Source: Bacilli bacterium
Lineage (GTDB): Bacteria > Bacillota_I > Bacilli_A > RFN20 > CAG-826
DNA: 64,000 bases
NCBI GenBank assembly: GCA_050952725.1
Contig: JBMNLN010000001.1
Span: forward strand, 752,108 to 816,107
Direction of reading: 5' to 3'
Made by a program: the position numbers and the translations under genes. Below the pieces are notes generated by a model. That model worked only from the letters and a program-made list of their open reading frames with translations. It did no database searches and had not been told where the DNA came from. Shown piece by piece: positions 42,727 to 61,493 of the stretch. How positions within the stretch are numbered: position 1 is the stretch's first letter; each line of letters opens with the position of its first letter.

Positions 42727-44847
42727 TTAGGTTAATTCCCACTGCAGTCGGGGCTTAGTTCCAGTAAAATCCCAAATTTCCAAATTGTAATCGAGTTCGC
42801 TCAGGAGTTCATCACTAGTATATCCGGTAATACCATCGCCTTTTCCAGTTGCGCTATTACCGATGCGGTCCATGGTGGACTGAGTTTTATCATAGGCACA
42901 ATGATAATAAATCGTCGCATGGCTTCCCCCGGGAGTAACACCGACAAAAGCTCCGACAAAAACATCTTCCCCAGTCTTATCAATCACGGTGGATAAGGCC
43001 AGACAGCAAATGAGCAGATTGTTATATCCTTCCATGCGCCCGACAAAGCCGCCAAGGTGGACTAAGGTGGTCGCGGTCGCTTGCACGCTGCCTTCGGCAT
43101 AGCAATCGCTGATTCCCCCATATCCCATATAACCGACAAAGCCGCCGCTATAATTCGCCCCGGTTACCTCCATATTGGCTTTAGCTTGCATAATCTGCAT
43201 ATAATTATCCAGCATTTGCCCGATAAAACCACCCGTGGGCGTCTGTTCACTGCCAGTCGCGGTCAGAGTGCCATTGGCACTCGAGCGACTGATCATCACT
43301 CCTTGTTCTGATTGACGCAGCAAGCCGATAAAGCCCCCGCTAATCGCATAGGCGGCAGTGATCTCGCCCTGATAATGGACATTTTCATAAATGGAGTTAT
43401 CACTAACTCCTGCAATGCCCCCAGCTTTAGCGATGCCATTACGAGCATGGAGGTTGATATCGATGATCACTTCCACATTTCTAATCGTGGCATGGGAAAT
43501 AACCGCGGATAGCCCCCCGATATGGGCTTCAAAGGTTTGATTGGAAGCGCTATTGACGAGGCCGACCAACTTCAAGTTGGAGATGGAGGCCCCATTTAAG
43601 CAACTGAAGAAGCCCACATTTTGGTTTTGATCACTGACATCAATCCCACTAATCGTATGCCCCGCGCCATCGAAACGGCCTCCAAAGGCTTTGGGTGTCC
43701 AAGGCTCGGTTAAGGTGATATCGGCATTTAACCGATAGGAACCTAAAAAAGTCATCGCCCGCAATTCGGTTTCGGAGTTGATTAAGGTGACATTGAAATA
43801 ATATTTCTCGCTCAGAGCAGAGGGATAATTGGCGCTTGAAATCGCCTGAACTTGGACATAAACACAACCTTCAATTGTCGCCTGCGGCATCGTGTAGCGA
43901 TTCGTGGTGATGCCGGCGACTAAATTTCCATCGATATAGATTTGATAACCATCCGCGTAGGGCACAGCCGCAAAGGTTAAGATATTTCCCGTCAAAGTGA
44001 GATTAGTTGGAGTGGTAAGGGTGATTTTTGGCACGTTGATTTCGACTTGGGCTATTTCGCTATTGAGGTAAGTAGCACTATCGCCACGGGCTTGAATTTC
44101 CACAGTGAGCATCCCGGTTTGATAATAGCCGATCTCACAGCGATTGGTGGGGCTCATCCCCCATAAAGACCCATCGATGACAACTTTATATTCCCTCGCC
44201 TGCGCGACAGCATCCCAAAGAAGAAACCCGTCGTCAAATGCGATATTACGCGGAGTGTCCAGCTGTTGTTTAATCGTGATTTCTTCGCTATAAGCACTCG
44301 ATTTTAAATAGGGGTCACTGGCCGTAGCTAAAACTTTAAGGCTGACGACCTCGCTAGTTAAATCGTATGCAGGATGATTGACATATTGTTCTGAGGCGTG
44401 ATTGATTTTTACGATATAGCCAGTCGCTAAGGGAACTTCATCCCAGAAGATCTGGTTGCCAACTTGGCGCAGATTTTGCGGGACTTCTAAAGTTAAGTAA
44501 GCGGTAAAGGTTTGGACTTCCGAATAAGGCGAACAAGAAGTCAAATGGCATGCTTTGACTTGGACGGTGATTATCCCATAGGTGGTCGCGGGTAATGCGA
44601 AATAATGTTCATAAGTAGTATGTTCGTCCGCATTGAGCAAAACGATATAGGAACTCGCTCCGTCCACCGCCTCCCAACTAAGGGTGCGCTCGGTCAAGGT
44701 AATCTGCTTGGGCGCGGTTAACTCACTGCTGGTGTCTTGACTGGTCGTCAGGCTGGATTCTTCGCGACTCGATTGGGGTTGACATCCAAAGAGGAGAAGA
44801 GCCACACTGGCGAAACTGAAGAAGAGATTGCGAAACTTTTTCATCAT
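42727..44847 (-). CDS. Lipoprotein with four FN3-like repeats and multiple GLUG motifs.
   Basis: The lipobox is LLLFGCQ. Repeated units of about 70 aa match (...W..V..A..Y.V...). The C-terminal half has repeated GG(F/I)(V/I)G...G motifs (GGFVGYMGYG, GGFIGQM, GGIAGVSDN, GGFVGRMEGY), which is the GLUG motif. Confidence 0.55.
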   Translation of the reverse strand: MMKKFRNLFFSFASVALLLFGCQPQSSREESSLTTSQDTSSELTAPKQITLTERTLSWEAVDGASSYIVLLNADEHTTYEHYFALPATTYGIITVQVKACHLTSCSPYSEVQTFTAYLTLEVPQNLRQVGNQIFWDEVPLATGYIVKINHASEQYVNHPAYDLTSEVVSLKVLATASDPYLKSSAYSEEITIKQQLDTPRNIAFDDGFLLWDAVAQAREYKVVIDGSLWGMSPTNRCEIGYYQTGMLTVEIQARGDSATYLNSEIAQVEINVPKITLTTPTNLTLTGNILTFAAVPYADGYQIYIDGNLVAGITTNRYTMPQATIEGCVYVQVQAISSANYPSALSEKYYFNVTLINSETELRAMTFLGSYRLNADITLTEPWTPKAFGGRFDGAGHTISGIDVSDQNQNVGFFSCLNGASISNLKLVGLVNSASNQTFEAHIGGLSAVISHATIRNVEVIIDINLHARNGIAKAGGIAGVSDNSIYENVHYQGEITAAYAISGGFIGLLRQSEQGVMISRSSANGTLTATGSEQTPTGGFIGQMLDNYMQIMQAKANMEVTGANYSGGFVGYMGYGGISDCYAEGSVQATATTLVHLGGFVGRMEGYNNLLICCLALSTVIDKTGEDVFVGAFVGVTPGGSHATIYYHCAYDKTQSTMDRIGNSATGKGDGITGYTSDELLSELDYNLEIWDFTGTKPRLQWELT

Positions 44848-47357
44848 GAACCTCCCAAACGCGGCCGATGGGTAATCGTCGGGGTGATAACTAAGTAATA
44901 GGAAGGGAGATTAATCACTTCCTGCGTATCGCGATTAACCACATAGGCTTGTAAGTAATAATCTTGATCAAAGGCTGCAAGCGAGAGATCTAAGGTTTGA
45001 GAAATCTCTATTCCTTTTGCATATTTTCCTAAAGGCAACTTGCTAAAATGGGGAACGGAGTATTCTTTCCTAATCGGCGTAAATAGCGCATCACCATTTA
45101 AGTGATAACCTTCGATGACCAATTCAATCGGATAATCGCGCTTATCGTTTTCATAGCGCTTATTCAAGGCGAAAGTTGCGATTTCTAAATTCGCCCCCAC
45201 GGCGTTAAACGCGGCTGCTCCGGCGCTAAAATCCCCGCGAGCAGTCGCCAAACCGACATACATATCGCCCGCGCCATAATAGAAATACCACTGATTTTGA
45301 TGACGGATCATCGTGTCGGCAAACATGCATTTATTAAATAAACCATAGTCAATTTTATTCGTATCGGTAGGATACATCGTCGGTTCATCTAAATCTAAGT
45401 GCACATTGGTTAACTCAAACGGATTGCTCTGTGTGGTTTTTAAGACGCCTAAGGCATAGAACCAGCCGCTGGCATTGGGCTGTTGATGTTGGATGTTCGC
45501 ATCGCTTAAGACCCCACCCCCATACATCAGATAAATATCTTGGTCATCGGGTCCGTAGATCTTGCTTATCGCCATACAGGACTCATTGCCTTTTGTTAAC
45601 TTTTCGATGTCATTGGGACCAAAATGGCGCGTGTCGATATCGATGATATCACTGGCCTCAATCCGGGTGACATCACTAGTAAAGCCAATGCGCGTATAGC
45701 CGCCATCTTTCATATAAATCATATATACTCGTCCAAATTTACCCGGGCGCGGATCGCTGATTTGGATGGCGTTTCCTTCCGGATCGGTGACGAAGGTTCC
45801 CGATTTATATGCATGCGCGTAATCGGGGGCGAGCCGCCCGACTTTATGATAGGTGACAAAGTCATGGGTGTAGAGCATCCCTTCGCGAGTAATCGCGTAA
45901 TCATACATCGTATAGGTGATGTAATAGGTGGTCAATCCGCCCCGATTAGGGTCGTTGACAATTTTAAAAATTCGCGGATCTTCCAACCCCCCACCATGTT
46001 CTTCGGGGAGGGTCGGCCAGGCAATCGGGTTATGCTTTCCCCGCGTAAAATGCACGCCATCAAGGGAAGAAGCATAAGAGAGCGTTGACATATGCCCTAA
46101 TTCATAACGCTCCCCATAGTAAGTATCGAAACGGTCAGGCAATTCGGAGCGATAGATCATATGAAAAATCTGGCGCTCATCATCATAAATCACCGCGGGG
46201 TTATAAGTCGCATAACTTTCAAATCCGGGAATATTACCATCGGCAATACTCGCCATATTTGTCACCACCCCATCCGCTTCAATCGGATAACCCTGGGGAG
46301 CTAAAATTAGCCCTCCATCGTGCAAGGTGATGTTACTCATCGCCACCCAAGCGGGACTATTGTGGGAGAATTCCATTGGATGGCCGAGTTTGACCGCGGG
46401 TAAATTGCTTTCGCAATAAAGATCAAACGAATAAATCGAGAACGTCGATTGCCACGGATAACGTCCGGTTTTCTTCGTGGCTTCGCTTGTTTCGCGTTGG
46501 ATTAATTCCACCTTCAGATAACGGCTGGTAGTGCCACTGGGGATTTTAAAGGTCTCGACTTCGCCAAGCCCCGCCTCGGTTCCAGTTAGGTAAACCCATC
46601 CCGCATCTGCGCGCGCTGGCGCGCTTGCCGATATTTCTGGGTGAACATAAATTTGATAGATGCGGGCGAAGGAAACTTCCCAGCGCACTTTAATTAAGTC
46701 AAAGAGCACCGGCGTTTTTAAATCGAAAATCAAACCTTGATCATCAAGCTGGGCTGAGGCCCATCGCGTCTGGGCCTGATTATCTAAAATAGCGGCAGCG
46801 GGTAATTCCACCTCATTTTCATAACTCGAGGCATAGATAACCTCGCCTCCGACTGCTAAACTCTTTGGTCCATACACTTCAAAACTGTAAAATGAATAGC
46901 CGTATTCGAGCGCGCGCCTCACTCCTTGAAATTTGACAAATTGCGTTTCAATCCACTGCGGAAAGATGATTTCATCGATTTCACTGCTAGTTTTATGCAC
47001 CGTCGCTACCGTGGTCCAAGTCACCGCGTCCATCGACATTTGCAACTGGTACTCACGCGCATAAGCGGCCTCCCAGTCAAGGACGACTTTGCCCACGCGT
47101 TCGACTCCGCCTAAATCGATGTAAAAGAAGGCGTTATCCTCAGGAATTGCGGCATAACGGGTATCATTGCGGGCATCGACAGCGTGAATATTGTAATGAT
47201 CATCAGTATGGCCACTAGAGACGACGCGGCGCATAAAAGCTAGATCAACTCCGTATTCGGTCGTCCCCGCAACTTGGAGCGGTTGTTTTTTCGGCAAAGT
47301 GATGGTGCTTGCAAGCCAAGTTGTCGCTAAAACCAAAAGTCCCTTTCGTAATTTCAT
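44844..47357 (-). CDS. Secreted multidomain glycosidase: two F5/8-type C (discoidin/CBM32-like) domains plus a GH130-like β-propeller.
   Basis: The start is set at the ATG complement of 47355-47357, with a GGAGG RBS and a signal peptide (MKLRKGLLVLATTWLAS). Discoidin-like repeats are present (FYIDLGG..VGKVVLDWE / LIFDLKTPVLFDLIKVRWE). NPAVIYDD..IFHMIYR ... SSLDGVHF ... GGLEDPRIF ... YYITYT resemble GH130 motifs. Confidence 0.6.
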   Translation of the reverse strand: MKLRKGLLVLATTWLASTITLPKKQPLQVAGTTEYGVDLAFMRRVVSSGHTDDHYNIHAVDARNDTRYAAIPEDNAFFYIDLGGVERVGKVVLDWEAAYAREYQLQMSMDAVTWTTVATVHKTSSEIDEIIFPQWIETQFVKFQGVRRALEYGYSFYSFEVYGPKSLAVGGEVIYASSYENEVELPAAAILDNQAQTRWASAQLDDQGLIFDLKTPVLFDLIKVRWEVSFARIYQIYVHPEISASAPARADAGWVYLTGTEAGLGEVETFKIPSGTTSRYLKVELIQRETSEATKKTGRYPWQSTFSIYSFDLYCESNLPAVKLGHPMEFSHNSPAWVAMSNITLHDGGLILAPQGYPIEADGVVTNMASIADGNIPGFESYATYNPAVIYDDERQIFHMIYRSELPDRFDTYYGERYELGHMSTLSYASSLDGVHFTRGKHNPIAWPTLPEEHGGGLEDPRIFKIVNDPNRGGLTTYYITYTMYDYAITREGMLYTHDFVTYHKVGRLAPDYAHAYKSGTFVTDPEGNAIQISDPRPGKFGRVYMIYMKDGGYTRIGFTSDVTRIEASDIIDIDTRHFGPNDIEKLTKGNESCMAISKIYGPDDQDIYLMYGGGVLSDANIQHQQPNASGWFYALGVLKTTQSNPFELTNVHLDLDEPTMYPTDTNKIDYGLFNKCMFADTMIRHQNQWYFYYGAGDMYVGLATARGDFSAGAAAFNAVGANLEIATFALNKRYENDKRDYPIELVIEGYHLNGDALFTPIRKEYSVPHFSKLPLGKYAKGIEISQTLDLSLAAFDQDYYLQAYVVNRDTQEVINLPSYYLVITPTITHRPRLGGS

Positions 47358-49882
47358 AATCTTTCCTCCAATAGGTTGATATTGAGTATTTTGGTCAAAT
47401 ATAGATGCGCATAAAGGGCACAGGGCCAAGTAAACCAATCGCGCGTGTATTCACTGGGATCATTGGCGTTAAAAGCCTCGTGCATCACATAAGTTCCCGC
47501 GGTCGTTGCCGTCATATAGGCAATCATCGTTTCAATTTCGCTTTGATTATCGGTGGTTAACCCCTGCATTGCTAACGCCATATGCCAGGGAACGGGAGTG
47601 TCAGGATGAGGGTTAGTTCCCCCGATCATATCGTGGGGATCACCAATGCCTTTCGCGTAAGTTCCCTCGTAATAATAGGGATTGTCTTGACTCAAGATAA
47701 AGGCTCTCGTATTTAAATAAGTTTGGTCATCTTTTTCCGCATATCCGAGCCAGGGAATTGATAATAAACTCGGAATATTAGCAGCGTCCATCAAGAGTTT
47801 CCCTTGCGCAGAATGCAGATCATGACTAAAACCATCAACTTCAAAAGCGTAGATTTTGCCATAAGTAGGGTGCTGATAGGTCGCATAGGTTTCGATCGCC
47901 GCTCTGACTTCACAAGCGAGCGTTGTCGCTAGATTTCGGGCTTCGGGAAAGCGATTGATCTCGTTGAGCAAAACCGCTATTTTCTCCAAAGTGGCAACAG
48001 CAAACATATTGCCAGGAATGAAGAATTTATAGTAAGTAACATCATCGCTGGGGCGATAGCCACTCCAGATTAAGCCGCTTTCGGTATTGACTTCATGGGG
48101 GCCGAAATCGCGATCACGACCCGTAATCATATAATTTTCATCGCGATGATCGCGCTCATTTTGCAAAGTGGTTAAGACCTTGTCCAAAGTAATTTGGAAG
48201 AAGGAGTCAAAGATTGTCGCATCTTGGGTAATGCGATAATATTTCTCCGCGAGCCATAAAGGATAAATCAAGGAATCGATTTCATATTTCAATTCAAAGA
48301 CGCTGCCATCAGCCTTAAAAGCGTTCGCATATTGATTGCGGCGCAATAGTTCAAATTGCCGCAAGAGCAAACCGCGCACTAATAACTGCACATCGGAATC
48401 AATCTTCATAAATTGCAAGTAGGGCAAAACCTGCGCACTGGAATCGCGCAACCACATCGCATCGATGTCGCCCGTAATGATAAAGGTGGTGCCATTGCGC
48501 TGGTTGGTTTGGATGACACTGGGCCAAGAGCCCTGGCTATTGGCAATACCATCCAGAGTCGCATAAAAAGTTTTTTGGACGGTGATTCTAGTGGTTTCGT
48601 CGCTGATTCCCTCAATTAGGGGATTGACATAACCGCGCATCGCTTGAAAAGTATAATCCGCGGTGGTCAGACCCAGTAAATTAAAGGCGACCTCATCACT
48701 AATCGCTGGAGTGTTTTCCAAATCGGTGATGATTTGTTCTAACGATAATAACCCCCAATCTCCCCGGGAATTATCGACGAATTCCAAGTAGAGAGCGCGA
48801 TTTTGATAAGGAATTAAATCGAGATAGTAAAGATGAGTGGCTTCCTCATCGGCCTCCTTCCAGCGGTCGCTAAAGAAGCGGAAAACCTCCTGATTAGTAC
48901 CGACGACTTTTAAGGAAACATAGGTCAGTTCGCGGTGTTTGGTCGCCCCAAGACGGAGTGAGGCAAACCGTTGACTCGTCACTTTAAATGCACTTGAACG
49001 CAGCACGCCAATCTTGGTTTCATCGGGGCGATTACTAAGGCGCTTGGCGGCATTAATATGGCTTTCTTGGAAGACTCCATCTTCCCCAATCACCGTGTAA
49101 CCAGAGAGCCCGTGACGGAAGTCGCCGTTATAAAGTGCGGTTGGGGTTCCCGCATAGTCATTGAAAACGGGCTTGATATCCTCAGCTTTGGTAAACCCGG
49201 TCAAATCGGGTCGGCTTTCGTAATAAGTCACAAAATGATCGACGACTAAATAACCGTAATTAGCCGTGGAACAATCGACTAAGGCAATTTTAATTTCTCT
49301 TCCTAACAAGCAACTTAAATCGACATAATAATCATTCATATTTTCGACGCGATAGGCGGGATGATCAGTGCTTGGCACATTAAATAATTGATTCCCGACG
49401 CGGTATAATTCCACCTCGGTTAAAGCATCGATAAAGGAAATGTAGGTAAGCGCCTGAAGATAGGCACCCCCTAATTTAAAGGTGATGATCCCGCTCCCTC
49501 CGACTATAAAAGCGGCCGAATGCAAAATCCCTTCTGCGCTTTCGTTTTGACTAAAGTAAAAGTAAGTTCCATCTTTGTTGTAGGGGACATCGGGATGGAC
49601 TTGATGAAAGTCGACGATATCGGAGTTTGAAAAAGCGTCGCCTTGGATGAGTTCCCATCCGGATAGATCCCCAGTTTCAAAATTTCCGTTGGCGATTTGA
49701 TAAATGCTCGGATCTTCTTCCGAACTCGACGAATCACCACTGCTCGCACTTGAGCATTCACTGCTCGAGGGATTAGATGAGTCGTGACTGCTGGAATGCG
49801 GCGGTTGACAGCTGAGCAAGATGAAAAAGTTCAGAAGTAAAAGGGAAATCTTTGAAAAATATCGTTTTCGTTTCACTTTCAT
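47354..49882 (-). CDS. Lipoprotein: two N-terminal CBM4_9-like β-sandwich domains plus a GH125 (exo-α-1,6-mannosidase family) catalytic domain.
   Basis: The lipobox is ILLSCQ with a Ser-rich linker. Two NG(N/D)FE.G..GW ... (I/V)L(H/R)S..F...G.G.I.FKLGG units are present. The C-terminal ...TFIITGDIDAMWLRDSSAQVLPYL... is the GH125/DUF1237 signature. Start codon choice (ATG 49882 or GTG 49876) is uncertain. Confidence 0.6.
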   Translation of the reverse strand: MKVKRKRYFSKISLLLLNFFILLSCQPPHSSSHDSSNPSSSECSSASSGDSSSSEEDPSIYQIANGNFETGDLSGWELIQGDAFSNSDIVDFHQVHPDVPYNKDGTYFYFSQNESAEGILHSAAFIVGGSGIITFKLGGAYLQALTYISFIDALTEVELYRVGNQLFNVPSTDHPAYRVENMNDYYVDLSCLLGREIKIALVDCSTANYGYLVVDHFVTYYESRPDLTGFTKAEDIKPVFNDYAGTPTALYNGDFRHGLSGYTVIGEDGVFQESHINAAKRLSNRPDETKIGVLRSSAFKVTSQRFASLRLGATKHRELTYVSLKVVGTNQEVFRFFSDRWKEADEEATHLYYLDLIPYQNRALYLEFVDNSRGDWGLLSLEQIITDLENTPAISDEVAFNLLGLTTADYTFQAMRGYVNPLIEGISDETTRITVQKTFYATLDGIANSQGSWPSVIQTNQRNGTTFIITGDIDAMWLRDSSAQVLPYLQFMKIDSDVQLLVRGLLLRQFELLRRNQYANAFKADGSVFELKYEIDSLIYPLWLAEKYYRITQDATIFDSFFQITLDKVLTTLQNERDHRDENYMITGRDRDFGPHEVNTESGLIWSGYRPSDDVTYYKFFIPGNMFAVATLEKIAVLLNEINRFPEARNLATTLACEVRAAIETYATYQHPTYGKIYAFEVDGFSHDLHSAQGKLLMDAANIPSLLSIPWLGYAEKDDQTYLNTRAFILSQDNPYYYEGTYAKGIGDPHDMIGGTNPHPDTPVPWHMALAMQGLTTDNQSEIETMIAYMTATTAGTYVMHEAFNANDPSEYTRDWFTWPCALYAHLYLTKILNINLLEERL

Positions 49883-49887
49883 CCTCC

Positions 49888-52268: not shown

Positions 52269-52272
52269 ATTG

Positions 52273-53169: not shown

Positions 53170-53171
53170 GT

Positions 53172-54101: not shown

Positions 54102-54104
54102 CGA

Positions 54105-56449: not shown

Positions 56450-58342
56450 TTACTCCGTACGATAGACTTTTAAATAACTGATTTTCATCATCGCCTCGGC
56501 AAATTGCGTTCCGATATCACTGCCATTGACCACCAGATAAAGTTGGAACTGCGGGTAAAGGGGATTAAAATCAATTACTTGGAATCCCGTTTCATTTCCA
56601 GAACTTAATTTAAGGGGGTTTTGCGAGATAATATTGCCATTTGCGTCATAATATAAGACCTTGATTTCCCACATCGTTTTGACAAAATCATTCAGGCGAT
56701 TTAATTCATCAACTTGTAAGAGCATTTGGATGTGAGCGGTCTGGGGTTGAACAAATTTTTGACTCACAATTCCCCCGAAGCAGTATTTCGCTTCGGGGTA
56801 TTTGTTTTGTTTCATCACCAACTTATCCCCTTCAAGGCGGAGTGAAGCGGGACTAAGCGCGTGGATAATCGGGTCTTCACTTTGTTTGGTGCGATCGGGA
56901 ATAGTCCACTTGGCAGCGTTGATGAAATCTTGAGGATAATCGTTAAAGTAGAGCGAGGTGCGACGCACATCAATCGTATATTTTTGTGGTTGTCCAGCGT
57001 TATTGATAATGATGCCCTGTTCGATATAAGCCTCATCCTTTTGCCAAGTGCTGGCTTTAGTCGCGTAATTGATATATAAATCTTCTGCGTTTCCTTCCGC
57101 ATAAAGTAATCCATTGATATTGCGATAGATTTTATTAGCGCTCCCATCGGTCAGATGGAGTTTGATCCGCGCTTTATTATTGAATTCGCGGGCGTTGGCT
57201 TCATTTAGATGCGTGGCATTATTAGCATCAAAATAATTTTCTAAAACGCAAGTATGCCCTTCTTGGTGACTGTGAACACTACTCATCGTTTCCGGAGTGA
57301 TATTCAAGTAAATTTCCCCAGTCCAAGTCGTGTTAAATAAAGTTTGAAAGAGGGGCAAGCCTTCGTTGGTACCGTTATAGTTAATTGTCGCTAATGCGGT
57401 TTTTAAATCATCGATATTTTCGTAACCACTTAAAACATCGATCAGAAGAGTAGCGACTTTACTCTGATCTACTTTTGATTTGGCCGTGACGATGGTGCGA
57501 CCGACGCTTGCAAACTGCACCATTCCGCTTTCGTTTACGTAGGCAATCTGCGGATTGGCACTTTCCCATAATACTTCCTGATTAGCGGTGCTTGGAGTAA
57601 TTGAAGTAGTTAAATGAACCGGTTCGCTATGAACAAGGCGCGCAAGCTGCTGATCAATAATCGCTGGCGAAGTAATCTCGATGCTCGTAATCGCTGCTTG
57701 ATTGTTGTAAATCGCGATATGTCGCAAATTTAATTCAGCGGTTTGTCTTTCCCCGTCGGGACCTTTGGCGAGGACATGGAAAGTACAATGTTTTATTTGC
57801 TCGCGATACTTCCACCCATTTTGGTAACCAGGATCGGGTTGAGTATTCCGTTCTCGATATTTTTGGCAAAGCATTGAATCAACGACATTGACCGAGATGA
57901 GTCCAGGGGTGTTTTCATCTGATAAAACGTAATAATATTCGAGCTCTCCCTCGACAGCTAATTTAATGATGTATTGAGAATAAGCATCGATGACATCCAT
58001 TTCGAAAATCACCGCTTTGGCGAAATCCAAAGCCAAAACCGGCGTTTGCACCCCGCCGTAATTGTCTAAACTCGCATCAATATTCCAAATTGACACATAG
58101 TCATCTTCCCCATGGTAATGAGCCACACCAGCTGGAGTTGCACTGCCAAATTGACTAATATGATGAGCAGAATATCGAACACTTTCACCATTCCATGAGG
58201 GAATTTCTGAGGGATTATCGCTATTGCTACTCGGATCGAGCGACGCGGAATCATTACTGCTTAAAGAAACACGGCTGGAGTTAGGTGTGCAGCTGCTGAT
58301 AATCAAGATTCCGAAAATTCCTAAAATGATTTTTTTCTTCAT
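56450..58342 (-). CDS. Lipoprotein with a Big_2 (bacterial Ig-like) domain. Function unknown.
   Basis: The lipobox is ILIISSCTPN. A Big_2-like segment is ...ANQEVLWESANPQIAYVNESGMVQFASVGRTIVTAKS.... Confidence 0.5.
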   Translation of the reverse strand: MKKKIILGIFGILIISSCTPNSSRVSLSSNDSASLDPSSNSDNPSEIPSWNGESVRYSAHHISQFGSATPAGVAHYHGEDDYVSIWNIDASLDNYGGVQTPVLALDFAKAVIFEMDVIDAYSQYIIKLAVEGELEYYYVLSDENTPGLISVNVVDSMLCQKYRERNTQPDPGYQNGWKYREQIKHCTFHVLAKGPDGERQTAELNLRHIAIYNNQAAITSIEITSPAIIDQQLARLVHSEPVHLTTSITPSTANQEVLWESANPQIAYVNESGMVQFASVGRTIVTAKSKVDQSKVATLLIDVLSGYENIDDLKTALATINYNGTNEGLPLFQTLFNTTWTGEIYLNITPETMSSVHSHQEGHTCVLENYFDANNATHLNEANAREFNNKARIKLHLTDGSANKIYRNINGLLYAEGNAEDLYINYATKASTWQKDEAYIEQGIIINNAGQPQKYTIDVRRTSLYFNDYPQDFINAAKWTIPDRTKQSEDPIIHALSPASLRLEGDKLVMKQNKYPEAKYCFGGIVSQKFVQPQTAHIQMLLQVDELNRLNDFVKTMWEIKVLYYDANGNIISQNPLKLSSGNETGFQVIDFNPLYPQFQLYLVVNGSDIGTQFAEAMMKISYLKVYRTE

Positions 58343-58346
58343 AAGT

Positions 58347-60392
58347 TCACCTGCATATCACTCTCTTGGTTACATAATCTTGTAAACCACTTTGGGTTTC
58401 GATGAGCACCTTTAAGGTGTAGTCGGTATCGGGTAATAAATCTTTTTCGTAATTAAAGAGATGCAGAGGTTCACCATCATAGGCTAAAATTTCGTTAAAA
58501 TAAATCTTCATTTTCATCACTTCATCGTTACGTAAACCAGTATAACGAATCTCGATGTTAGACTGCTCTGTTAACTCTTGCCGGGTATCAATATTGATTA
58601 ATTCCACCGCAGGACGCTTTTTGCTTAAGATATCTTCCCTTAAATAAAAGGTGTCACCTTCAAGTTTCAAATAACTGTTAACCGGTATGACTTTTAGTAC
58701 CAAGGCGCTTTCTTTTGGAAGGGAAATGCGAACATTTCCTTGTAAATCGCGTCCGAATATCGAATTGGATGTCATATCAAACAAGTCGTATTTTTCTTTT
58801 GTTCCGTTAAAGGTGAAGACGCAATCTTCGGGATAAGGATTATAGAACATATAGGTTGGGTATCCGTTACTCCCAAAACTATCCGTGGCATTTAAATCGA
58901 TTTGGAGGATGCCATCAACGTCGGTTGGCGATACGAGTGCCCCCATCCCTCCAAGGAACACACTGCTATATAGACTTAAATCAGATGGTTGATCAAACAT
59001 CGTGGTTGCATCGCCCATCGCATATCCGTTTATTCCGTTCCAAGAATTTCGAAAGCCTTCGTAAATGATGTTGCCTTGGGGATCAAACGGCAAATAATAA
59101 TCCATTGATTGGCGTTCAAGTGGATGTTCTTTGGGGAAGAAGATGCGACTATTACTAACGACATTGAGCATATATTTACCCAAGGCGGTGGCAAAACGAG
59201 GTTCATATTTCACCAGGGGCATTAACGTCGTGGGTAAGTGGAAAGAGTTCATCGAAAAGGCGTAATCGCCAGTTTGCCCGACTAGCCCATGCATTGGGTA
59301 ACCGCCGAAGGTATTATTCATCACCGCCCATCCTGGCCGAAAGGCCGAATCGGGGTCGAAGATAAAGTCAAGAAATTTACCAATGTCATAATCAGTGCCG
59401 TATTTTTGATTTAATACTGCGGCAACATAAGGGGCATAATCAGTGAGCGCTTCATAATTTGGGTTTTTTTGATAGGTTTGCAGGTAATCAAGCACTTCTT
59501 TACACCCGATTAAATATTTGTCATCCTTTGTGATTTCATAAGCAGAATAAAAAAGAAAAGCAAGACCACCGTTAGGGGGTTCGATATGGCCACCCGTTGT
59601 CGTCGGCGAGCCTAAAACCACGTTGTAGCCTACAAATTCATAATTTGGTTGCCCCTCTTTGACAAAGTTGGGTAAGGCTGCTAACCATTGATTAGCACCG
59701 TTTAAAACCATCTCGCGCATATAAGGGGTTTCTGGATAATAATCAAATAGACGCGCGAATAAAATTTGTGGGAATAAGTCATACCAAAAACTTTGACCTT
59801 GGACCCCATAGTTGTGGACTAATTTACTACCTGTGTCATAACTTGCAAATGTCATTTCGACAAAGTCATAAGTGATTTCATCGAAAAATTGTCTTTGTTT
59901 GTCAATTCCGGCCCAAGTACTCCCCAATACGGCCCCAATAGTCACAATTGCTTCGCTTCCAGAACTAAGGACGCGATTATCCCCGACATAGGTGGGAAAA
60001 CCAAAAGTTCGTTTTAAATATCCAGTTTCTAACGGATTATATATCGGGGGTTGCCGCGGTTGATCAAGCCAATAGCCCATGGGACTCCAAGTGGTCGGGT
60101 CATTAGCGATATAAGCAGGTAACTTCGCTTCAATGTCATGGGCAAAATCAAAAGCTAAAGCATCAAAATCTTTAGCGATTTTTTTAAAATTAATATATCG
60201 GTAATTATTTGGAAAAGATGGGAAGGTATTAATCCGTGAAACAGCTTTTTGAGTGCTTTTTTCGCGGGGATAAACTGTTTCAGGAGGATTTTGACTGCTT
60301 GATTCAAAAGATTCACTACCATTAGAAAGGTGGCAGCTGGTCACTAGCAAAAACAAAATGATAAATACACTAAAGGGATGTTTTTTATTCAT
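58347..60392 (-). CDS. Large lipoprotein, possibly an (α/α)6-type glycoside hydrolase-like protein.
   Basis: The lipobox is FLLVTSCHL. The 681 aa product has a Trp/Tyr-rich central region typical of glycan-binding or hydrolysing folds. No firm family assignment is made. Confidence 0.4.
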   Translation of the reverse strand: MNKKHPFSVFIILFLLVTSCHLSNGSESFESSSQNPPETVYPREKSTQKAVSRINTFPSFPNNYRYINFKKIAKDFDALAFDFAHDIEAKLPAYIANDPTTWSPMGYWLDQPRQPPIYNPLETGYLKRTFGFPTYVGDNRVLSSGSEAIVTIGAVLGSTWAGIDKQRQFFDEITYDFVEMTFASYDTGSKLVHNYGVQGQSFWYDLFPQILFARLFDYYPETPYMREMVLNGANQWLAALPNFVKEGQPNYEFVGYNVVLGSPTTTGGHIEPPNGGLAFLFYSAYEITKDDKYLIGCKEVLDYLQTYQKNPNYEALTDYAPYVAAVLNQKYGTDYDIGKFLDFIFDPDSAFRPGWAVMNNTFGGYPMHGLVGQTGDYAFSMNSFHLPTTLMPLVKYEPRFATALGKYMLNVVSNSRIFFPKEHPLERQSMDYYLPFDPQGNIIYEGFRNSWNGINGYAMGDATTMFDQPSDLSLYSSVFLGGMGALVSPTDVDGILQIDLNATDSFGSNGYPTYMFYNPYPEDCVFTFNGTKEKYDLFDMTSNSIFGRDLQGNVRISLPKESALVLKVIPVNSYLKLEGDTFYLREDILSKKRPAVELINIDTRQELTEQSNIEIRYTGLRNDEVMKMKIYFNEILAYDGEPLHLFNYEKDLLPDTDYTLKVLIETQSGLQDYVTKRVICR

Positions 60393-60503
60393 TTTATATG
60401 TGCCTCGATTTTAGTATAGCACAACAATTATTAATAAAAACCTTTTAATTAAAAAATTAATCAAAAATTAATCTATATTTAATCAATTATTTATGCATTC
60501 GCT

Positions 60504-61493
60504 CTAACGAATGATGGTTTTAACAGAATCTCTTTCAACTAATGTGACGGTGATTTGCTGCATCACCCGCTTCTTATTCATGATGTCAATCATTGCGTTA
60601 TAAGCTTTTTTAGCAAAGGAATCACGAGCGGGACCAATGGAGGTTAATTTGGGCAAGAGATTTTCACAGAGTTGGGTATTATCGAAACTGACCACCGAAA
60701 CATCATCGGGGATTTTAAATCCATTGAAGGAGAGGATGGAGTAAAGTTTTTGTGCCGCGGCATCACAGTGACAAATAAAAGCGGTGGGCATCTCATCAAG
60801 CGGAAGATCAAATATCACTTGACTCAATTCAATGTTTTCATTGATATGCCAATTTGGGCGATAGATTAATCCGTGTTCATTAATGGCTTTTAAATATCCA
60901 AAATAGCGATCGGAAACGGCTGCCGTTTTATTGATATTACCAATAAAACCAATCTTTCGGTGACCTTTTTCGATCAAATAGTTGGTGAGTTTATACGCGG
61001 TTTGATAGTTATTGTTATACATAAAGTTCAGCGTGTATAACGGCGAATAATAGTCGATGAACAAGGAAGGGATGCTGACATCTTCCATGTATTTAAAAAC
61101 TTCCGGATCCAATTCACCTGCAAAAAACACCCCATCAGGTTTTAAAATACTAATGGCCGATTTAAGTTTTTCAACTGGATTGATATCGTCAACAAAAACA
61201 ACTTGGAGCATACTATCGGCTTTGGATAATTCACCGCTTAAATAGTAAAAGATATTTGAATAGTATTGCTCGGATGGAGTTAAGAAGAAGTCCTTATTAA
61301 TCACAAAAATAAAACGACTATTATCCATGACTTGGCGAGGTGATTTTACGCCATACCCTACGGAAGTGGCATAGGTTTTAATTCTCTTACGCAGATCTTC
61401 ACTCACGCCTTTTTGATTATTGAGTGCTTTATGGACGGCGACTGTGCTGATATTGAATTTTTCTGCGATACTTTTTAATGTGACTTTTTTCAT
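60504..61493 (-). CDS. LacI-family transcriptional regulator.
   Basis: The N-terminal HTH is VTLKSIAEKFNISTVAVHKALNN, followed by a periplasmic-binding-protein-like sugar-binding domain. Confidence 0.8.
   Translation of the reverse strand: MKKVTLKSIAEKFNISTVAVHKALNNQKGVSEDLRKRIKTYATSVGYGVKSPRQVMDNSRFIFVINKDFFLTPSEQYYSNIFYYLSGELSKADSMLQVVFVDDINPVEKLKSAISILKPDGVFFAGELDPEVFKYMEDVSIPSLFIDYYSPLYTLNFMYNNNYQTAYKLTNYLIEKGHRKIGFIGNINKTAAVSDRYFGYLKAINEHGLIYRPNWHINENIELSQVIFDLPLDEMPTAFICHCDAAAQKLYSILSFNGFKIPDDVSVVSFDNTQLCENLLPKLTSIGPARDSFAKKAYNAMIDIMNKKRVMQQITVTLVERDSVKTIIR

What the first reader, a model, noticed from the sequence alone, without database searches (positions are those of the whole stretch)
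42727..61493. Polycistronic minus-strand glycan-utilisation locus of about 17.6 kb, with gene content pointing to α/β-mannoside or N-glycan catabolism.
Eleven genes are arranged head-to-tail with 0-5 bp gaps or overlaps and span 60392 to 42727. In transcription order they are: two lipoproteins (one with a Big_2 domain), a GH130 phosphorylase, a substrate-binding protein with two permeases, a DUF-type β-propeller protein, a tandem-CBM lipoprotein, a GH125 α-1,6-mannosidase-family lipoprotein, a discoidin×2-GH130-like secreted enzyme and a GLUG/FN3 lipoprotein. A LacI regulator lies upstream at 60504-61493. A phosphomannomutase-like gene at 63631 onwards could convert the mannose-1-phosphate product of GH130 into mannose-6-phosphate. 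GH125 together with GH130 is characteristic of high-mannose N-glycan or fungal mannan foraging, which is unusual and interesting for a Mollicutes-like organism.
Basis: partly seen in the sequence, partly recalled or inferred. Interest (0 to 1): 0.65.

Follow-up and report, generated by a model that had tools for sequence, protein, structure and literature searches.

The report
Beta-1,2-mannoside utilisation operon
An 11-gene operon in an uncultured, Mollicutes-like Bacilli bacterium most likely harvests β-1,2-linked (plus α-1,6-linked) mannose sugars such as those on Candida-type yeast walls, and its first gene belongs to a large uncharacterised enzyme family that sits next to β-1,2-mannobiose phosphorylases in several phyla.

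Summary
Eleven minus-strand genes (60392 to 42727) are packed with gaps of -4 to +5 bp, and a LacI-type regulator lies upstream. Gene order is identical in at least 15 other genomes.

- The cytoplasmic GH130 is a Lin0857/Uhgb_MS-type (GH130_4) β-1,2-mannobiose phosphorylase with every key residue present.
- The "DUF β-propeller" is DUF1861, which is CAZy GT108, the Leishmania β-1,2-mannan phosphorylase/transferase family.
- The secreted discoidin-GH130 protein has the residue signature of β-1,2-mannosidases, not phosphorylases.
- GH125 keeps its catalytic residues.

Nothing specific to N-glycans is present.

The most interesting part is gene 1, a 681-aa lipoprotein with no Pfam, NCBIfam or PDB sequence match. 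It models confidently as an (α/α)6 barrel. Its family has at least 574 clusters (50% identity). It sits beside GH130_4 and/or GT108 genes in Bacillota, Bacteroidota, Verrucomicrobiota and Planctomycetota, often as the only candidate depolymerase.

Verdict: a real catabolic operon and a new variant of a known kind. The natural substrate and the activity of gene 1 are inferred, not shown.

The parts
60504..61493 (-). LacI-family regulator, 329 aa; presumed repressor of the operon
   Evidence: Peripla_BP_3 103.7 bits and Peripla_BP_1 48.3 bits. The LacI HTH scores only 20.8 bits, below the 27-bit cut-off. A homologue flanks the operon in 58 of 80 related loci.
60393..60503 (-). Promoter/operator region. 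It holds an extended -10 (TG-c-TATACT, 60421-60413), an RBS (GAGG, 60406-60403) and three GATTAA(T) repeats plus TAATTAA at 60445-60484, spaced 11-13 bp.
   Evidence: Sequence read. GATTAA occurs 37 times in the 200 nt upstream of gene 1 across 17 orthologous loci, against 5.3 +/- 2.3 in shuffles (maximum 13 of 1000). Within the window alone the motif is not convincing. Binding by the LacI protein is inferred.
58347..60392 (-). g01: 681-aa lipoprotein of an uncharacterised family; (α/α)6 barrel plus two C-terminal β-sandwiches; candidate extracellular depolymerase
   Evidence: No Pfam, NCBIfam or PDB sequence match. AF2 model pLDDT 92.2. Best Foldseek hits are GH127/GH146 at E 5e-7 but TM only 0.27-0.31. 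The family has 574 representatives at E<=1e-30. It is linked to GH130_4/GT108 in four phyla.
56450..58342 (-). g02: 630-aa lipoprotein with four β-rich domains including Big_2; probably a non-catalytic surface glycan-binding protein
   Evidence: Big_2 29.5 bits. AF2 model pLDDT 86.9. Foldseek hits are CBM51, Big_2-CBM56, SGBP-B and CBM22, all at low TM. The family is restricted to this lineage, with 89 hits.
55418..56449 (-). g03: cytoplasmic GH130 subfamily-4-type β-1,2-mannobiose/-triose phosphorylase, 343 aa
   Evidence: Lin0857 (5b0p) E 8e-90; Uhgb_MS E 4e-72. NCBIfam BtaManbiosPhlase 388 bits. R42, lid R83, E129/D130, K177, H194/R195 and R235 are all conserved (PMC12814180). No signal peptide.
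54105..55421 (-). g04: lipoprotein solute-binding protein of a CUT1-type ABC importer
   Evidence: SBP_bac_8 71.3 bits and SBP_bac_1 70.5 bits. LTGC lipobox.
53172..54101 (-). g05: ABC permease 1
   Evidence: BPD_transp_1 49.4 bits.
52273..53169 (-). g06: ABC permease 2. No ATPase gene is present in the locus.
   Evidence: BPD_transp_1 50.3 bits.
51342..52268 (-). g07: cytoplasmic DUF1861 (CAZy GT108) protein, 308 aa; inferred β-1,2-oligomannan phosphorylase
   Evidence: PF08950 316.6 bits. Leishmania MTP2/MTP4 E 6e-41 and 6e-40. D85 aligns with the MTP2 catalytic Asp94. R153 aligns with MTP4 Arg150 / MTP2 His161 (PMC10913872). Both are invariant in 24 homologues.
49888..51345 (-). g08: 485-aa lipoprotein carrying a tandem pair of an unclassified ~175-aa domain (residues 130-475)
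   Evidence: No Pfam match. The internal repeat and paralogy with the g09 N-terminus and u586 are at 26-32% identity, E 1e-12 to 1e-48. A profile against PDB finds only the N-terminal NGxFETGxLxGW motif.
47354..49882 (-). g09: 842-aa lipoprotein; the same tandem domain (61-395) fused to a GH125 exo-α-1,6-mannosidase domain (434-827)
   Evidence: PF06824 365 bits. 3on6 and BT3781 E 1e-86 and 1e-82. D613 (RPSDD) aligns with CpGH125 D220, located by comparing the wild-type and D220N chains. The MHE motif (E802) is kept.
44844..47357 (-). g10: 837-aa secreted protein; 2x F5/8C (CBM32-like), a divergent hydrolase-type GH130 domain and a C-terminal ~130-aa domain
   Evidence: F5_F8_type_C 77.4 bits and GH130 58.6 bits. 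Best PDB and NCBIfam matches are the BT3780 β-1,2-mannosidase group. N386, R403, E459/D460, K518, D551, E592 and D698 are invariant in 11 orthologues. It meets the 'GH, β-1,2' criteria of PMC7660257 Table 2.
42727..44847 (-). g11: 706-aa lipoprotein; four ~75-aa FN3-like repeats, then a GLUG-type region; role unknown
   Evidence: Glug 20.1 bits, just under the 20.5 cut-off. The repeats were aligned by eye and MAFFT only. It is last in the operon in 8 fully covered relatives.
42564..42587 (.). Bidirectional terminator hairpin between the convergent gene 11 and the CBM26 gene
   Evidence: AAAGCGCCC-aaatga-GGGCGCTTT, -18 kcal/mol, z -4.4. The generic scan did not list it, and terminator-like sites inside the operon are at the chance level.
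61840..63516 (+). u586: divergently transcribed 558-aa secreted protein with the same tandem domain and a C-terminal membrane anchor; probably an accessory part of the system
   Evidence: No Pfam match. 30% identity to g08 and the g09 N-terminus. The start at M29 agrees with the public gene call. Paralogues lie beside or inside the operon in relatives.
63631..64000 (+). 5' end of a PGM/PMM-family phosphohexomutase (563 aa in the full contig); could convert Man-1-P to Man-6-P
   Evidence: PGM_PMM_I/II/III domains in the identical contig. A homologue lies within 10 kb of DUF1861 in only 8 of the 80 scanned loci.

Best explanation
This is a LacI-controlled, single-transcript catabolic operon of a Gram-positive-type (lipoprotein plus ABC importer) glycan utilisation system. 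It is centred on β-1,2-mannosides.

Proposed path:
1. Surface lipoproteins bind and cut a β-1,2-mannosylated glycan. The candidates are g01 (unknown (α/α)6 enzyme), g02, g08, g09 (GH125 exo-α-1,6-mannosidase), g11, and the secreted g10 (hydrolase-type GH130 with two CBM32-like modules).
2. Short β-1,2-manno-oligosaccharides are captured by the solute-binding lipoprotein and imported by the two permeases. The ATPase is encoded elsewhere.
3. In the cytoplasm the GT108/DUF1861 enzyme phosphorolyses longer chains, and the lidded GH130_4 enzyme finishes the di- and trisaccharides. The products are α-mannose-1-phosphate and mannose, made without spending ATP.
4. The nearby PGM/PMM can pass Man-1-P to Man-6-P and glycolysis.

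What is shown: gene arrangement, family membership, active-site residues, cellular location signals and synteny.

What is inferred: all enzyme activities, the split of chain lengths between g07 and g03, the role of g01, single-transcript status and the operator.

The most likely natural source is fungal (Candida-type) β-1,2-capped mannan or phosphomannan with an α-1,6 backbone. I give that roughly 0.45 on its own.
For: Arrangement:
- Eleven co-directional genes with -4 to +5 bp junctions.
- One promoter region and one strong hairpin after gene 11.
- Identical gene order in 15 genomes.

g03:
- Lin0857 at E 8e-90 and Uhgb_MS at E 4e-72; 388 bits to the NCBIfam β-1,2-mannobiose phosphorylase model.
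- It keeps the catalytic Asp, the β-1,2-specific Glu/Lys pair, the phosphate-binding Arg/His/Arg and the GH130_4 lid Arg that limits substrates to DP2-3 (PMC12814180).

g07:
- DUF1861/GT108, with the Leishmania β-1,2-mannan enzymes at E 6e-41. It has the catalytic Asp and the Arg found in the phosphorolytic MTPs.
- The only characterised bacterial GT108 is a bifunctional phosphorylase/transferase (PMC10913872).
- 65 of 80 DUF1861 loci carry a GH130_4 homologue within 10 kb, 64 of them on the same strand.
- This mirrors the long-chain/short-chain GH130 pair of Thermoanaerobacter (PMC4264767).

g10:
- Signal peptide, acidic residues (D551, E592) where phosphorylases have Arg, and the R/E/K/D +1 subsite, all invariant in 11 orthologues. 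These are the published criteria for β-1,2-mannosidases (PMC7660257, PMC4599007).

g09: GH125 with its catalytic residues.

Context:
- BT3780 (GH130) and BT3781 (GH125) are the best or near-best solved relatives of g10 and g09. BT3780 lies in a yeast-mannan locus (PMC4599007).
- An adjacent operon has a GH30 closest to the fungal β-1,6-glucanase BT3312.
- In some relatives a surface protein with a purple-acid-phosphatase domain is inserted in the operon. That fits phosphodiester-linked β-1,2-oligomannosides.
Against: - No enzyme was assayed and no expression data exist.
- The locus lacks any α-1,2- or α-1,3-mannosidase or endo-α-1,6-mannanase (GH92, GH38, GH76, GH99). It therefore could not strip a branched yeast α-mannan. 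GH125 acts only on unbranched α-1,6 mannose.
- If g10 is exo-acting like BT3780 it releases mannose, not importable oligosaccharides. In that case the source of oligosaccharides rests on the unknown g01.
- g03 is below the NCBIfam equivalog cut-off (388 against 550 bits). g10 is far below it (59.5 against 550 bits) and only ~20% identical to BT3780. Its Lys518 assignment rests on a motif match, because phmmer aligned that stretch differently.
- The Arg in GT108 does not by itself predict phosphorylase activity (PMC10913872).
- The habitats of the relatives (digesters, sediments, lakes) are not known for Candida-type mannan.
- Promoter and terminator scans are at chance level overall.
Confidence: 0.7

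Rival explanations
1. High-mannose N-glycan foraging. Surface enzymes would trim host or fungal N-glycans. The GH130 would phosphorolyse the Man-β-1,4-GlcNAc core, and GH125 would remove α-1,6 mannose.
For: GH125 enzymes of S. pneumoniae and C. perfringens are solved relatives. GH130 includes N-glycan core phosphorylases such as Uhgb_MP, a weaker hit at E 3e-33. F5/8C modules are common in host-glycan enzymes.
Against: - There is no endo-β-N-acetylglucosaminidase (GH18/GH85), GH20, GH38, GH92, GH47 or GH2 in the locus or its flanks.
- g03 has Glu129/Lys177 (β-1,2) and not the Tyr/Arg pair of β-1,4 enzymes. It also has the GH130_4 lid (PMC7660257, PMC12814180).
- g07's only characterised relatives act on β-1,2-mannan.
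Confidence: 0.05
2. The same β-1,2-mannoside machinery, but the natural substrate is not fungal. It would be a linear β-1,2-mannan such as the mannogen of kinetoplastid protists, or an unknown bacterial or algal β-1,2-mannan. In that case g01 would act as an endo-β-1,2-mannanase, and GH125 and the other lipoproteins would be add-ons.
For: - Minimal cassettes in Amphibacillus, Alkalihalobacillus, a Clostridia MAG and Paludibacter-type PULs contain only a g01-family protein, a transporter and GH130_4, with or without GT108. They have no α-mannosidase.
- The relatives come from digesters, sediments and lakes.
- GT108 is the mannogen-turnover family.
- The source of β-1,2-oligomannan for the Thermoanaerobacter system is also unknown (PMC4264767).
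Against: - This lineage has added GH125, whose known substrates are α-1,6-mannosides of fungal mannan and N-glycans.
- A probable fungal β-1,6-glucan operon is adjacent.
- No free-living producer of abundant β-1,2-mannan in these habitats is documented in the papers searched.
Confidence: 0.2
3. Anabolic or storage role. g07 (a GT108 'mannosyltransferase') and g03 would build and recycle an intracellular β-1,2-mannan reserve as in Leishmania, or supply Man-1-P/GDP-mannose for glycoconjugate synthesis.
For: - GT108 enzymes and β-1,2-specific GH130s can use GDP-mannose (PMC10913872, PMC12814180).
- The Thermoanaerobacter cluster was read as a GDP-mannose salvage route (PMC4264767).
- A PGM/PMM gene is nearby.
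Against: - The two enzymes are co-transcribed with an importer, six exported proteins and a LacI-type regulator.
- There is no mannose-1-phosphate guanylyltransferase or other glycosyltransferase in the locus.
- The GT activity of GH130_4 is about 1000-fold weaker than its phosphorylase activity and was judged probably not physiological (PMC12814180).
Confidence: 0.04
4. Plant β-1,4-mannan or glucomannan utilisation, the commonest context of GH130 in Firmicutes.
For: GH130 plus an ABC importer plus LacI is the layout of Roseburia-type β-mannan loci (PMC6385246, title and abstract only). TM1225 and RaMP2 are detectable hits at E 1e-43 and 1e-33.
Against: - There is no GH26, GH5 or GH113 mannanase, no GH36 α-galactosidase, no esterase and no mannobiose 2-epimerase.
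- The best hits and the specificity residues are β-1,2.
Confidence: 0.02

Closest known systems
Thermoanaerobacter sp. X-514 cluster Teth514_1785-1796 (PMC4264767)
   Same: It has an ABC importer plus two cytoplasmic β-1,2-mannoside phosphorylases with complementary chain-length preference (oligomannan and mannobiose), transcribed in one direction. The proposed logic is to import β-1,2-oligomannan and make Man-1-P without ATP.
   Different: - There both phosphorylases are GH130_6. Here one is GH130_4 and the other is GT108.
- That cluster has a GH5, a Man-1-P guanylyltransferase and a GT4, and was read as GDP-mannose salvage.
- It has no GH125, no secreted GH130, no g01-family protein and no lipoprotein set.
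Bacteroides thetaiotaomicron yeast-mannan locus enzymes BT3780 (GH130 β-1,2-mannosidase) and BT3781 (GH125) (PMC4599007; PDB 5a7v, 2p0v)
   Same: They are the best or near-best solved relatives of g10 and g09. Both systems pair an exported hydrolase-type GH130 with a GH125 in one glycan locus. The proposed target is β-1,2 caps on an α-1,6-backbone mannan.
   Different: - The Bacteroides system is SusC/D-based and periplasmic, and comes with many GH92, GH76, GH99 and GH38 α-mannan enzymes. It has no phosphorylases.
- Here the system uses lipoproteins plus an ABC importer, two phosphorylases and no α-1,2/1,3 enzymes.
- g10 is only ~20% identical to BT3780, is more than twice as long, and carries two CBM32-like modules.
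Listeria innocua Lin0857 and human-gut Uhgb_MS (GH130_4; PDB 5b0p, 9erg; PMC12814180)
   Same: g03 aligns end to end with both. It has all catalytic, phosphate-binding, β-1,2-specificity and lid residues.
   Different: - Identity is moderate and falls below the NCBIfam equivalog cut-off.
- The genomic setting of those enzymes is not discussed in the papers read.
- A Uhgb_MS-like gene in Paludibacter sits in a SusC/D PUL with two g01-family proteins.
Leishmania mannogen MTP array (GT108; PDB 6q4x, 6q50) and Anaerocolumna sedimenticola AsGT (PMC10913872)
   Same: g07 belongs to the same DUF1861 family, with the same catalytic Asp and the Arg of the phosphorolytic members.
   Different: - In Leishmania the enzymes build and recycle an internal storage polymer and sit in a tandem paralogue array.
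- Here a single copy sits in an import-and-degrade operon.
- The physiological role of bacterial GT108 has not been described in the papers found.
β-1,2-glucan systems: an extracellular (α/α)6 endo-β-1,2-glucanase plus an ABC importer plus a GH94 1,2-β-oligoglucan phosphorylase. The system layout is recalled from memory. The phosphorylase itself is in PMC5309861 (abstract only).
   Same: The operating logic is analogous: an (α/α)6 surface depolymerase, import of oligosaccharides and cytoplasmic phosphorolysis.
   Different: The sugar and the families differ. Foldseek did not place g01 near GH144 or GH162 in its top 50 hits. This is an analogy only, not a tested relationship.

Membership tests
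GH130 subfamily 4 (β-1,2-mannobiose phosphorylase, Lin0857/Uhgb_MS type): g03 | GH130 five-bladed propeller domain above the Pfam gathering score | tested here: met
   PF04041 171.5 bits against a 26-bit cut-off.
GH130 subfamily 4: g03 | Catalytic Asp, with the adjacent Glu and a Lys forming the β-1,2-specific E/K pair | tested here: met
   E129/D130 (GLED) and K177 (NKD) align with Uhgb_MS E136/D137/K184 (PMC12814180, PMC7660257).
GH130 subfamily 4: g03 | Phosphate-binding basic residues, and no signal peptide | tested here: met
   H194/R195 (HRP) and R235 align with Uhgb_MS R202 and R242. The N-terminus has no hydrophobic signal.
GH130 subfamily 4: g03 | Subfamily-specific ~50-residue lid loop with an Arg that limits substrates to DP2-3 | tested here: met
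   Residues ~47-100 align with the Lin0857 loop with only two short gaps. R83 aligns with Uhgb_MS R88, followed by V84 at the V89/M90 position (PMC12814180).
GH130 subfamily 4: g03 | NCBIfam equivalog score for β-1,2-mannobiose phosphorylase | tested here: not met
   NF050092 388 bits against a 550-bit cut-off. It is a family member but not certified as an equivalog.
GH130 subfamily 4: g03 | Pi-dependent cleavage of β-1,2-mannobiose | not testable with these tools
   Needs an enzyme assay.
GT108 / DUF1861 (β-1,2-mannan phosphorylase/transferase): g07 | DUF1861 domain over its full length | tested here: met
   PF08950 316.6 bits, profile positions 4-295 of 296.
GT108 / DUF1861: g07 | Catalytic Asp (MTP2 Asp94) | tested here: met
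   D85 in QDP. The position was located by comparing the wild-type and D94N chains 6q4x and 6q4z. It is invariant in 24 homologues.
GT108 / DUF1861: g07 | Arg in the phosphate pocket (MTP4 Arg150), as opposed to His in strict transferases | tested here: met
   R153 aligns with MTP2 His161. Per PMC10913872 this residue alone does not decide phosphorylase activity.
GT108 / DUF1861: g07 | Phosphorolysis or synthesis of β-1,2-mannan | not testable with these tools
   Needs an enzyme assay.
GH125 (exo-α-1,6-mannosidase): g09 C-terminal domain | GH125 domain over its full length | tested here: met
   PF06824 365 bits, profile positions 7-412 of 414. BT3781 E 1e-82.
GH125: g09 | Catalytic acid Asp (CpGH125 D220) and catalytic base Glu | tested here: met
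   D613 in RPSDD aligns with the residue that differs between 2nvp and the D220N chain 5m7i. The MHE motif Glu802 is conserved, but its identification as the base is from memory.
GH130 hydrolase group (BT3780-type β-1,2-mannosidases, GH130_3): g10 | GH130 domain above the Pfam gathering score | tested here: met
   58.6 bits against 26, but only profile positions 32-141 of 320 matched. phmmer aligns 329 residues to BT3780 at E 1e-11.
GH130 hydrolase group: g10 | Signal peptide; acidic residues in place of the phosphate-binding Arg (BT3780 E227, E268) | tested here: met
   D551 and E592 are invariant in 11 orthologues. There is no HRP or R-x-G-x-G motif. PMC7660257 Table 2 allows D/E at the base position.
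GH130 hydrolase group: g10 | +1 subsite R/E/K/D of β-1,2-specific enzymes | tested here: inconclusive
   R403, E459 and D698 align directly. K518 (KSG motif, matching BT3780 K199 in cKSGsil) is invariant in orthologues, but phmmer placed it 7 residues off.
GH130 hydrolase group: g10 | NCBIfam equivalog score for the BT3780 β-1,2-mannosidase | tested here: not met
   59.5 bits against a 550-bit cut-off. It is best treated as a separate, uncharacterised GH130 branch.
GH127/GH146 (β-L-arabinofuranosidases): g01 | Same fold and domain order ((α/α)6 barrel plus β-sandwiches) | tested here: inconclusive
GH127/GH146: g01 | Cysteine nucleophile and Cys-rich zinc site (recalled from the HypBA1 literature) | tested here: not met
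   No cysteine is among the invariant or >=90% conserved columns of the barrel in the 42-sequence alignment. The conserved acidic residues are D77, E147, D336, E445 and D461. There is no sequence hit to DUF1680. g01 is not filed as a member.
LacI/GalR regulators: 60504-61493 | Sugar-binding Peripla_BP domain plus an N-terminal LacI HTH | tested here: inconclusive
   Peripla_BP_3 103.7 bits is met. The LacI HTH at 20.8 bits is below the 27-bit cut-off.
CUT1-type ABC sugar importer: g04-g06 | SBP_bac_1/8 lipoprotein, two BPD_transp_1 permeases and an ATPase | tested here: inconclusive
   The SBP and both permeases are met. No ATPase lies in the locus. A shared ATPase encoded elsewhere is assumed, as is usual for this class (established knowledge).
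GLUG / FN3: g11 | Pfam Glug and fn3 domains above cut-off | tested here: not met
   Glug scores 20.1 against 20.5. There is no fn3 hit even at E 5. The repeats are seen only by eye.

The most novel reading that the evidence does not exclude
The g01 family is a new glycoside hydrolase family whose members depolymerise β-1,2-mannoside-containing glycans, for example as endo-β-1,2-mannanases. The family is at least 574 clusters at 50% identity, (α/α)6 barrel plus β-sandwiches, with no Pfam, NCBIfam or PDB sequence relative.

Together with a transporter, a GH130_4 phosphorylase and often a GT108 phosphorylase, it would form a dedicated β-1,2-mannan utilisation cassette shared by Bacillota, Bacteroidota, Verrucomicrobiota and Planctomycetota. 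This would also give bacterial GT108 its first physiological role.

Basis:
- 27 of 80 DUF1861 loci carry a g01 homologue on the same strand.
- Of 8 distant g01 homologues chosen from the hit list without regard to context, 4 have a GH130 gene within 10 kb. Three of those are GH130_4-type.
- In the minimal cassettes g01 is the only candidate depolymerase, and it is a lipoprotein or T9SS-secreted.
Probability: 0.35. Interest if true: 0.75.

Novelty: new variant of a known kind. Interest (0 to 1): 0.58.

Why it matters
β-1,2-mannosides are immunologically important caps on Candida mannan and are the storage polymer of Leishmania. Yet no enzyme that cuts a β-1,2-mannan chain internally turned up in the literature search here. 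The only bacterial GT108 studied so far was studied as an enzyme, not in a pathway.

This operon and its minimal versions in cultured Amphibacillus, Alkalihalobacillus, Gorillibacterium and Paenibacillus give three things:
1. A testable pathway for how bacteria import β-1,2-manno-oligosaccharides and phosphorolyse them without spending ATP.
2. A physiological setting for bacterial GT108.
3. A well-defined candidate (g01) for a new carbohydrate-active enzyme family, plus a new exported GH130 branch.

It also shows that free-living, wall-less or Mollicutes-like Bacilli carry a conserved, elaborate surface glycan-harvesting system. In the literature found, these organisms are known mainly as DNA degraders. 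Here the system sits next to a probable fungal β-1,6-glucan locus.

Tried and rejected
- Sequence searches of g01 against PDB, Pfam and NCBIfam gave only noise: cellobiose 2-epimerase at E 0.13 and C5-epimerase at E 0.065. I rejected an extracellular epimerase reading. The protein is a lipoprotein, and its relatives carry SLH, dockerin, T9SS and CBM modules.
- A profile of the tandem ~175-aa domain against PDB found only the N-terminal NGxFETGxLxGW motif in 8xmz. No CBM family could be assigned.
- The generic promoter and terminator scans were at chance level (38 found against 40 expected; 23 against 21) and missed the real hairpin.
- Within the window alone the GATTAAT motif is weak: 41 against 23 expected genome-wide. 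The spaced pattern gave 6 matches against 2.2 expected, and only one match lay in the right place. Only the comparison across 17 loci makes it credible.
- The PGM/PMM linkage is weak: 8 of the 80 scanned loci, besides the window's own contig.
- The phmmer alignment of g10 to BT3780 is unreliable in the middle of the domain (accuracy 0.69). I relied on motifs that are invariant in orthologues instead.
- Literature searches for an endo-β-1,2-mannanase, and for GH130/GH125 in Izemoplasma, found nothing relevant.
- I considered GH127/GH146 membership for g01 and rejected it because no conserved cysteines are present.

Full report
OBSERVATION

The window (about 44% G+C here) carries eleven minus-strand ORFs from 60392 down to 42727. 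The mechanical ORF for gene 10 starts at a TTG (47438) and overlaps gene 9 by 85 bp. The ATG at 47357 begins a normal signal peptide (MKLRKGLLVLATTWLAS...) and overlaps the stop of gene 9 in an ATGA arrangement. With that start, every junction is between -4 and +5 bp.

A 111-bp AT-rich spacer separates gene 1 from a LacI-type regulator gene (60504-61493). It holds an extended -10 (TGcTATACT) and a GAGG ribosome-binding site. A -18 kcal/mol hairpin (z = -4.4) lies between gene 11 and the convergent upstream gene.

The sequence is identical to public MAG contigs labelled 'Bacilli bacterium', one of them 1.33 Mb. The closest other genomes are MAGs labelled Tenericutes bacterium ADurb.Bin239/Bin087, Izemoplasmatales and Acholeplasmatales.

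Using the central DUF1861 gene as an anchor, I fetched 80 related loci with 10-kb flanks. Fifteen carry genes 1-9 and eight carry all eleven. They are always on one strand and in the same order, at 45-80% protein identity. The arrangement is real and under selection.

CYTOPLASMIC ENZYMES

Gene 3 (343 aa, no signal peptide) is a GH130 (171.5 bits).
- Its best solved relatives are Lin0857, the Listeria β-1,2-mannobiose phosphorylase (E 8e-90), and Uhgb_MS (E 4e-72). β-1,4-specific enzymes score far lower.
- NCBIfam gives 388 bits to the β-1,2-mannobiose phosphorylase model, below its strict 550-bit equivalog line.
- Reading the alignments against the residues defined in PMC12814180 and PMC7660257, gene 3 has Arg42, the lid Arg83, Glu129/Asp130, Lys177, His194/Arg195 and Arg235.
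- These are the catalytic Asp, the β-1,2-specific Glu/Lys pair, the phosphate ligands and the GH130_4 lid that restricts substrates to di- and trisaccharides.

Gene 7 (308 aa, no signal peptide) is a full-length DUF1861 (316.6 bits).
- Its only solved relatives are the Leishmania MTPs that make and phosphorolyse β-1,2-mannan (E 6e-41). This family is CAZy GT108.
- Asp85 matches the MTP2 catalytic Asp. I located that position by comparing the wild-type and D94N chains.
- Arg153 matches the Arg of the phosphorolytic MTP4 rather than the His of the strict transferase MTP2. PMC10913872 shows that this Arg alone does not decide the activity.
- The same paper reports that the one bacterial GT108 tested is a bifunctional phosphorylase/transferase.

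Of the 80 DUF1861 loci, 65 have a GH130_4 homologue within 10 kb and 64 of these are on the same strand. The pairing recalls the long-chain/short-chain pair Teth514_1788/1789 of Thermoanaerobacter (PMC4264767). From this I infer that gene 7 handles longer β-1,2 chains and gene 3 handles the final di- and trisaccharides.

EXPORTED PROTEINS

Gene 10 (837 aa) has two F5/8C modules and a divergent GH130 domain.
- Its best PDB and NCBIfam matches are the BT3780-type β-1,2-mannosidases, but at only ~20% identity.
- The residues that PMC4599007 and PMC7660257 use to separate hydrolases from phosphorylases are all of the hydrolase, β-1,2 kind.
- These are Asn386, Arg403, Glu459/Asp460, Lys518 (KSG motif), Asp551 and Glu592 in place of the phosphate-binding arginines, and Asp698. 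All are invariant in 11 orthologues.

Gene 9 fuses an N-terminal tandem domain to a GH125 domain (365 bits). Its best relatives include BT3781, and the catalytic RPSDD Asp and the MHE motif are intact.

The tandem ~175-aa domain, which begins NGxFETGDLxGW, occurs twice each in gene 8, in the N-terminus of gene 9 and in the divergently transcribed protein at 61840-63516. It matches no Pfam or PDB family. Calling it a CBM is reasonable but untested.

Gene 2 models (pLDDT 87) as four β-rich domains whose structural neighbours are CBMs and a Bacteroides surface glycan-binding protein. It is probably non-catalytic.

Gene 11 has four FN3-like repeats visible by eye and a sub-threshold GLUG match. 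Its role is unknown.

GENE 1

The 681-aa lipoprotein has no Pfam, NCBIfam or PDB sequence match.
- With a 42-sequence alignment it models at pLDDT 92 as an (α/α)6 barrel followed by two β-sandwiches.
- Foldseek's best PDB hits are GH127/GH146 enzymes with the same domain order. The TM scores are only 0.27-0.31, and the family has no conserved cysteines, so it is not a GH127.
- A profile search of 1.84 billion representatives finds 574 clusters at E<=1e-30 and 1,462 at E<=1e-3.
- Members carry SLH, dockerin, T9SS, PATR, CBM9, LamG and F5/8C modules. The family is therefore extracellular and looks carbohydrate-active.

Its genomic company is striking.
- 27 of 80 DUF1861 loci have a homologue on the same strand.
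- Cultured Amphibacillus marinus and Alkalihalobacillus sp. have a minimal cassette: LacI | SBP-permease-permease-g01 homologue (lipoprotein)-GH130_4-DUF1861.
- Gorillibacterium and Paenibacillus have a signal-less copy next to DUF1861 plus large secreted paralogues.
- Verrucomicrobiia and Tepidisphaeraceae MAGs also link the genes.
- Working from the other direction, I looked up eight distant g01 homologues chosen without regard to context. Four have a GH130 gene within 10 kb and three of those are GH130_4-type.
- Two of these are Bacteroidota SusC/D PULs made of GH130_4, an MFS transporter, a lipoprotein g01 homologue, SusC, SusD, a LamG protein and a T9SS g01 homologue.
- In these minimal loci the g01-family protein is the only candidate depolymerase.

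I therefore think g01 is the enzyme that makes the importable β-mannoside fragments. This is inference from context alone.

SUBSTRATE

Three independent enzymes point to β-1,2-mannosidic bonds, and GH125 points to α-1,6.
- N-glycan-specific and plant-mannan-specific enzymes are absent.
- The combination of β-1,2 caps with an α-1,6 backbone is that of Candida-type mannan, the proposed target of BT3780 (PMC4599007).
- Two side observations agree with a fungal-wall theme. The adjacent plus-strand operon (32535-42536) encodes a GH30 whose best solved relative is the fungal β-1,6-glucanase BT3312.
- In six relatives a 1,445-1,991-aa surface protein is inserted between genes 8 and 9. Of the three scanned, the L027 copy ends in a purple-acid-phosphatase/metallophosphoesterase domain. 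That would suit phosphodiester-linked β-1,2-oligomannosides.

Against a full yeast-mannan role, the locus has no α-1,2/1,3-mannosidase or endo-α-1,6-mannanase. The minimal cassettes elsewhere need no α-mannosidase at all, and the habitats are digesters, sediments and lakes. A linear β-1,2-mannan from protists or bacteria is therefore a live alternative for the source. It does not change the mechanism.

REGULATION

The hexamer GATTAA occurs 37 times in the 200 nt upstream of gene 1 across 17 orthologous loci, against 5.3 +/- 2.3 in shuffles. In the window it forms 11-13-bp-spaced repeats at 60445-60484. Similar repeats precede the regulator gene. It is a candidate operator, but within the window alone it is not significant. 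Single-transcript status is inferred from the junctions and from the lack of above-chance internal terminators.

COMPARISON AND NOVELTY

Each recognised family is known, and so is the general plan: LacI, lipoprotein enzymes, an ABC importer and cytoplasmic phosphorylases.

New here:
- The pairing of GH130_4 with GT108 in a catabolic operon. None of the papers found describes a physiological setting for bacterial GT108.
- An exported, CBM32-bearing GH130 branch far from BT3780.
- The g01 family and its cross-phylum association with β-1,2-mannobiose phosphorylases.
- The conservation of the whole 11-gene system in free-living Mollicutes-like Bacilli (one search found no prior mention).

I rate it a new variant of a known kind, of moderate to good interest. 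The interest lies mainly in making the g01 family and bacterial GT108 directly testable.

Noticed in passing
window 32535-42536 (+): A second sugar operon abuts the locus tail to tail. It encodes LacI (32535-33488), an SBP (33566-34846), a fused double permease (641 aa), a GH30 of 830 aa whose best solved relative is BT3312, the fungal endo-β-1,6-glucanase (5ngk, E 4e-46), a GH30 of 468 aa (SrfJ/glucocerebrosidase-like, E 1e-88) and a CBM26/Listeria-Bacteroides-repeat protein. It is possibly a β-1,6-glucan (fungal wall) locus.
   Followed up: partly
window ~18240-26300: A low-G+C island (29-34% against ~44%) is bounded by a tRNA at 18245-18316 and a cluster of tRNAs at 25603-26250. It encodes an AAA_14/DUF4143 ATPase, an Mrr-type restriction endonuclease and a 775-aa DndB-like protein. 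It looks like an integrated defence island.
   Followed up: partly
window 27368-28462 (-): An HTH_3 plus Peptidase_M78 (ImmA/IrrE-like) gene sits just beyond the tRNA cluster. This pairing is typical of mobile-element regulators. Another tRNA lies at 26951-27023.
   Followed up: no
L027:12339-17909, L014:12315-18290, L007:12346-17454 (also L011, L021, L033): In six relatives a single 1,445-1,991-aa surface protein is inserted between genes 8 and 9. The three copies scanned (L027, L014, L007) have 4-5 CBM_X2 repeats and cadherin/Big_9 domains; the shared tandem domain was located in L027 and u586-like matches fall in this interval in all six loci. The L027 copy ends in a purple-acid-phosphatase/metallophosphoesterase domain. 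The window lacks this gene.
   Followed up: partly
L083:203-13144 and L086:1-11848 (Bacteroidota MAGs): These are SusC/D PULs made of a Uhgb_MS-like GH130_4, an MFS transporter, a 576-aa lipoprotein of the g01 family, SusC, SusD, a LamG protein and a T9SS-secreted g01-family protein. This gives the so far context-less 'mannoside synthase' Uhgb_MS type a likely catabolic setting.
   Followed up: partly
L090:41-7501 (Clostridia MAG): Here a g01-family protein follows an SBP and two permeases. It is followed by two GH130-like genes that are not GH130_4, as they have no GIED/NKD/HRP motifs. The family may therefore also work with other GH130 branches.
   Followed up: no
L084 and L085, 8900-15000: Two distant g01-family paralogues in tandem (about 770 and 785 aa) lie behind an AraC-type regulator, with no GH130 or DUF1861 nearby. 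One locus has a GH43. Not all members of the family are tied to mannoside phosphorylases.
   Followed up: no
window 61494-61755: The spacer between the LacI gene and the divergent u586 gene contains direct repeats GGTTAATTTAT x2 and GATTAAATTAAC. They resemble the GATTAAT repeats upstream of gene 1, which suggests autoregulation or co-regulation of u586.
   Followed up: no
window 30812-32437 (-) and 4958-6322, 8961-10556 (+): Three ORFs of 454-541 aa have no Pfam match. They were not examined further.
   Followed up: no
window 15726-16985 (+): A DUF2804 protein (304 bits) follows an ABC transporter operon (ATPase with TOBE_2, two permeases, SBP; 11036-15645). Its function is unknown.
   Followed up: no
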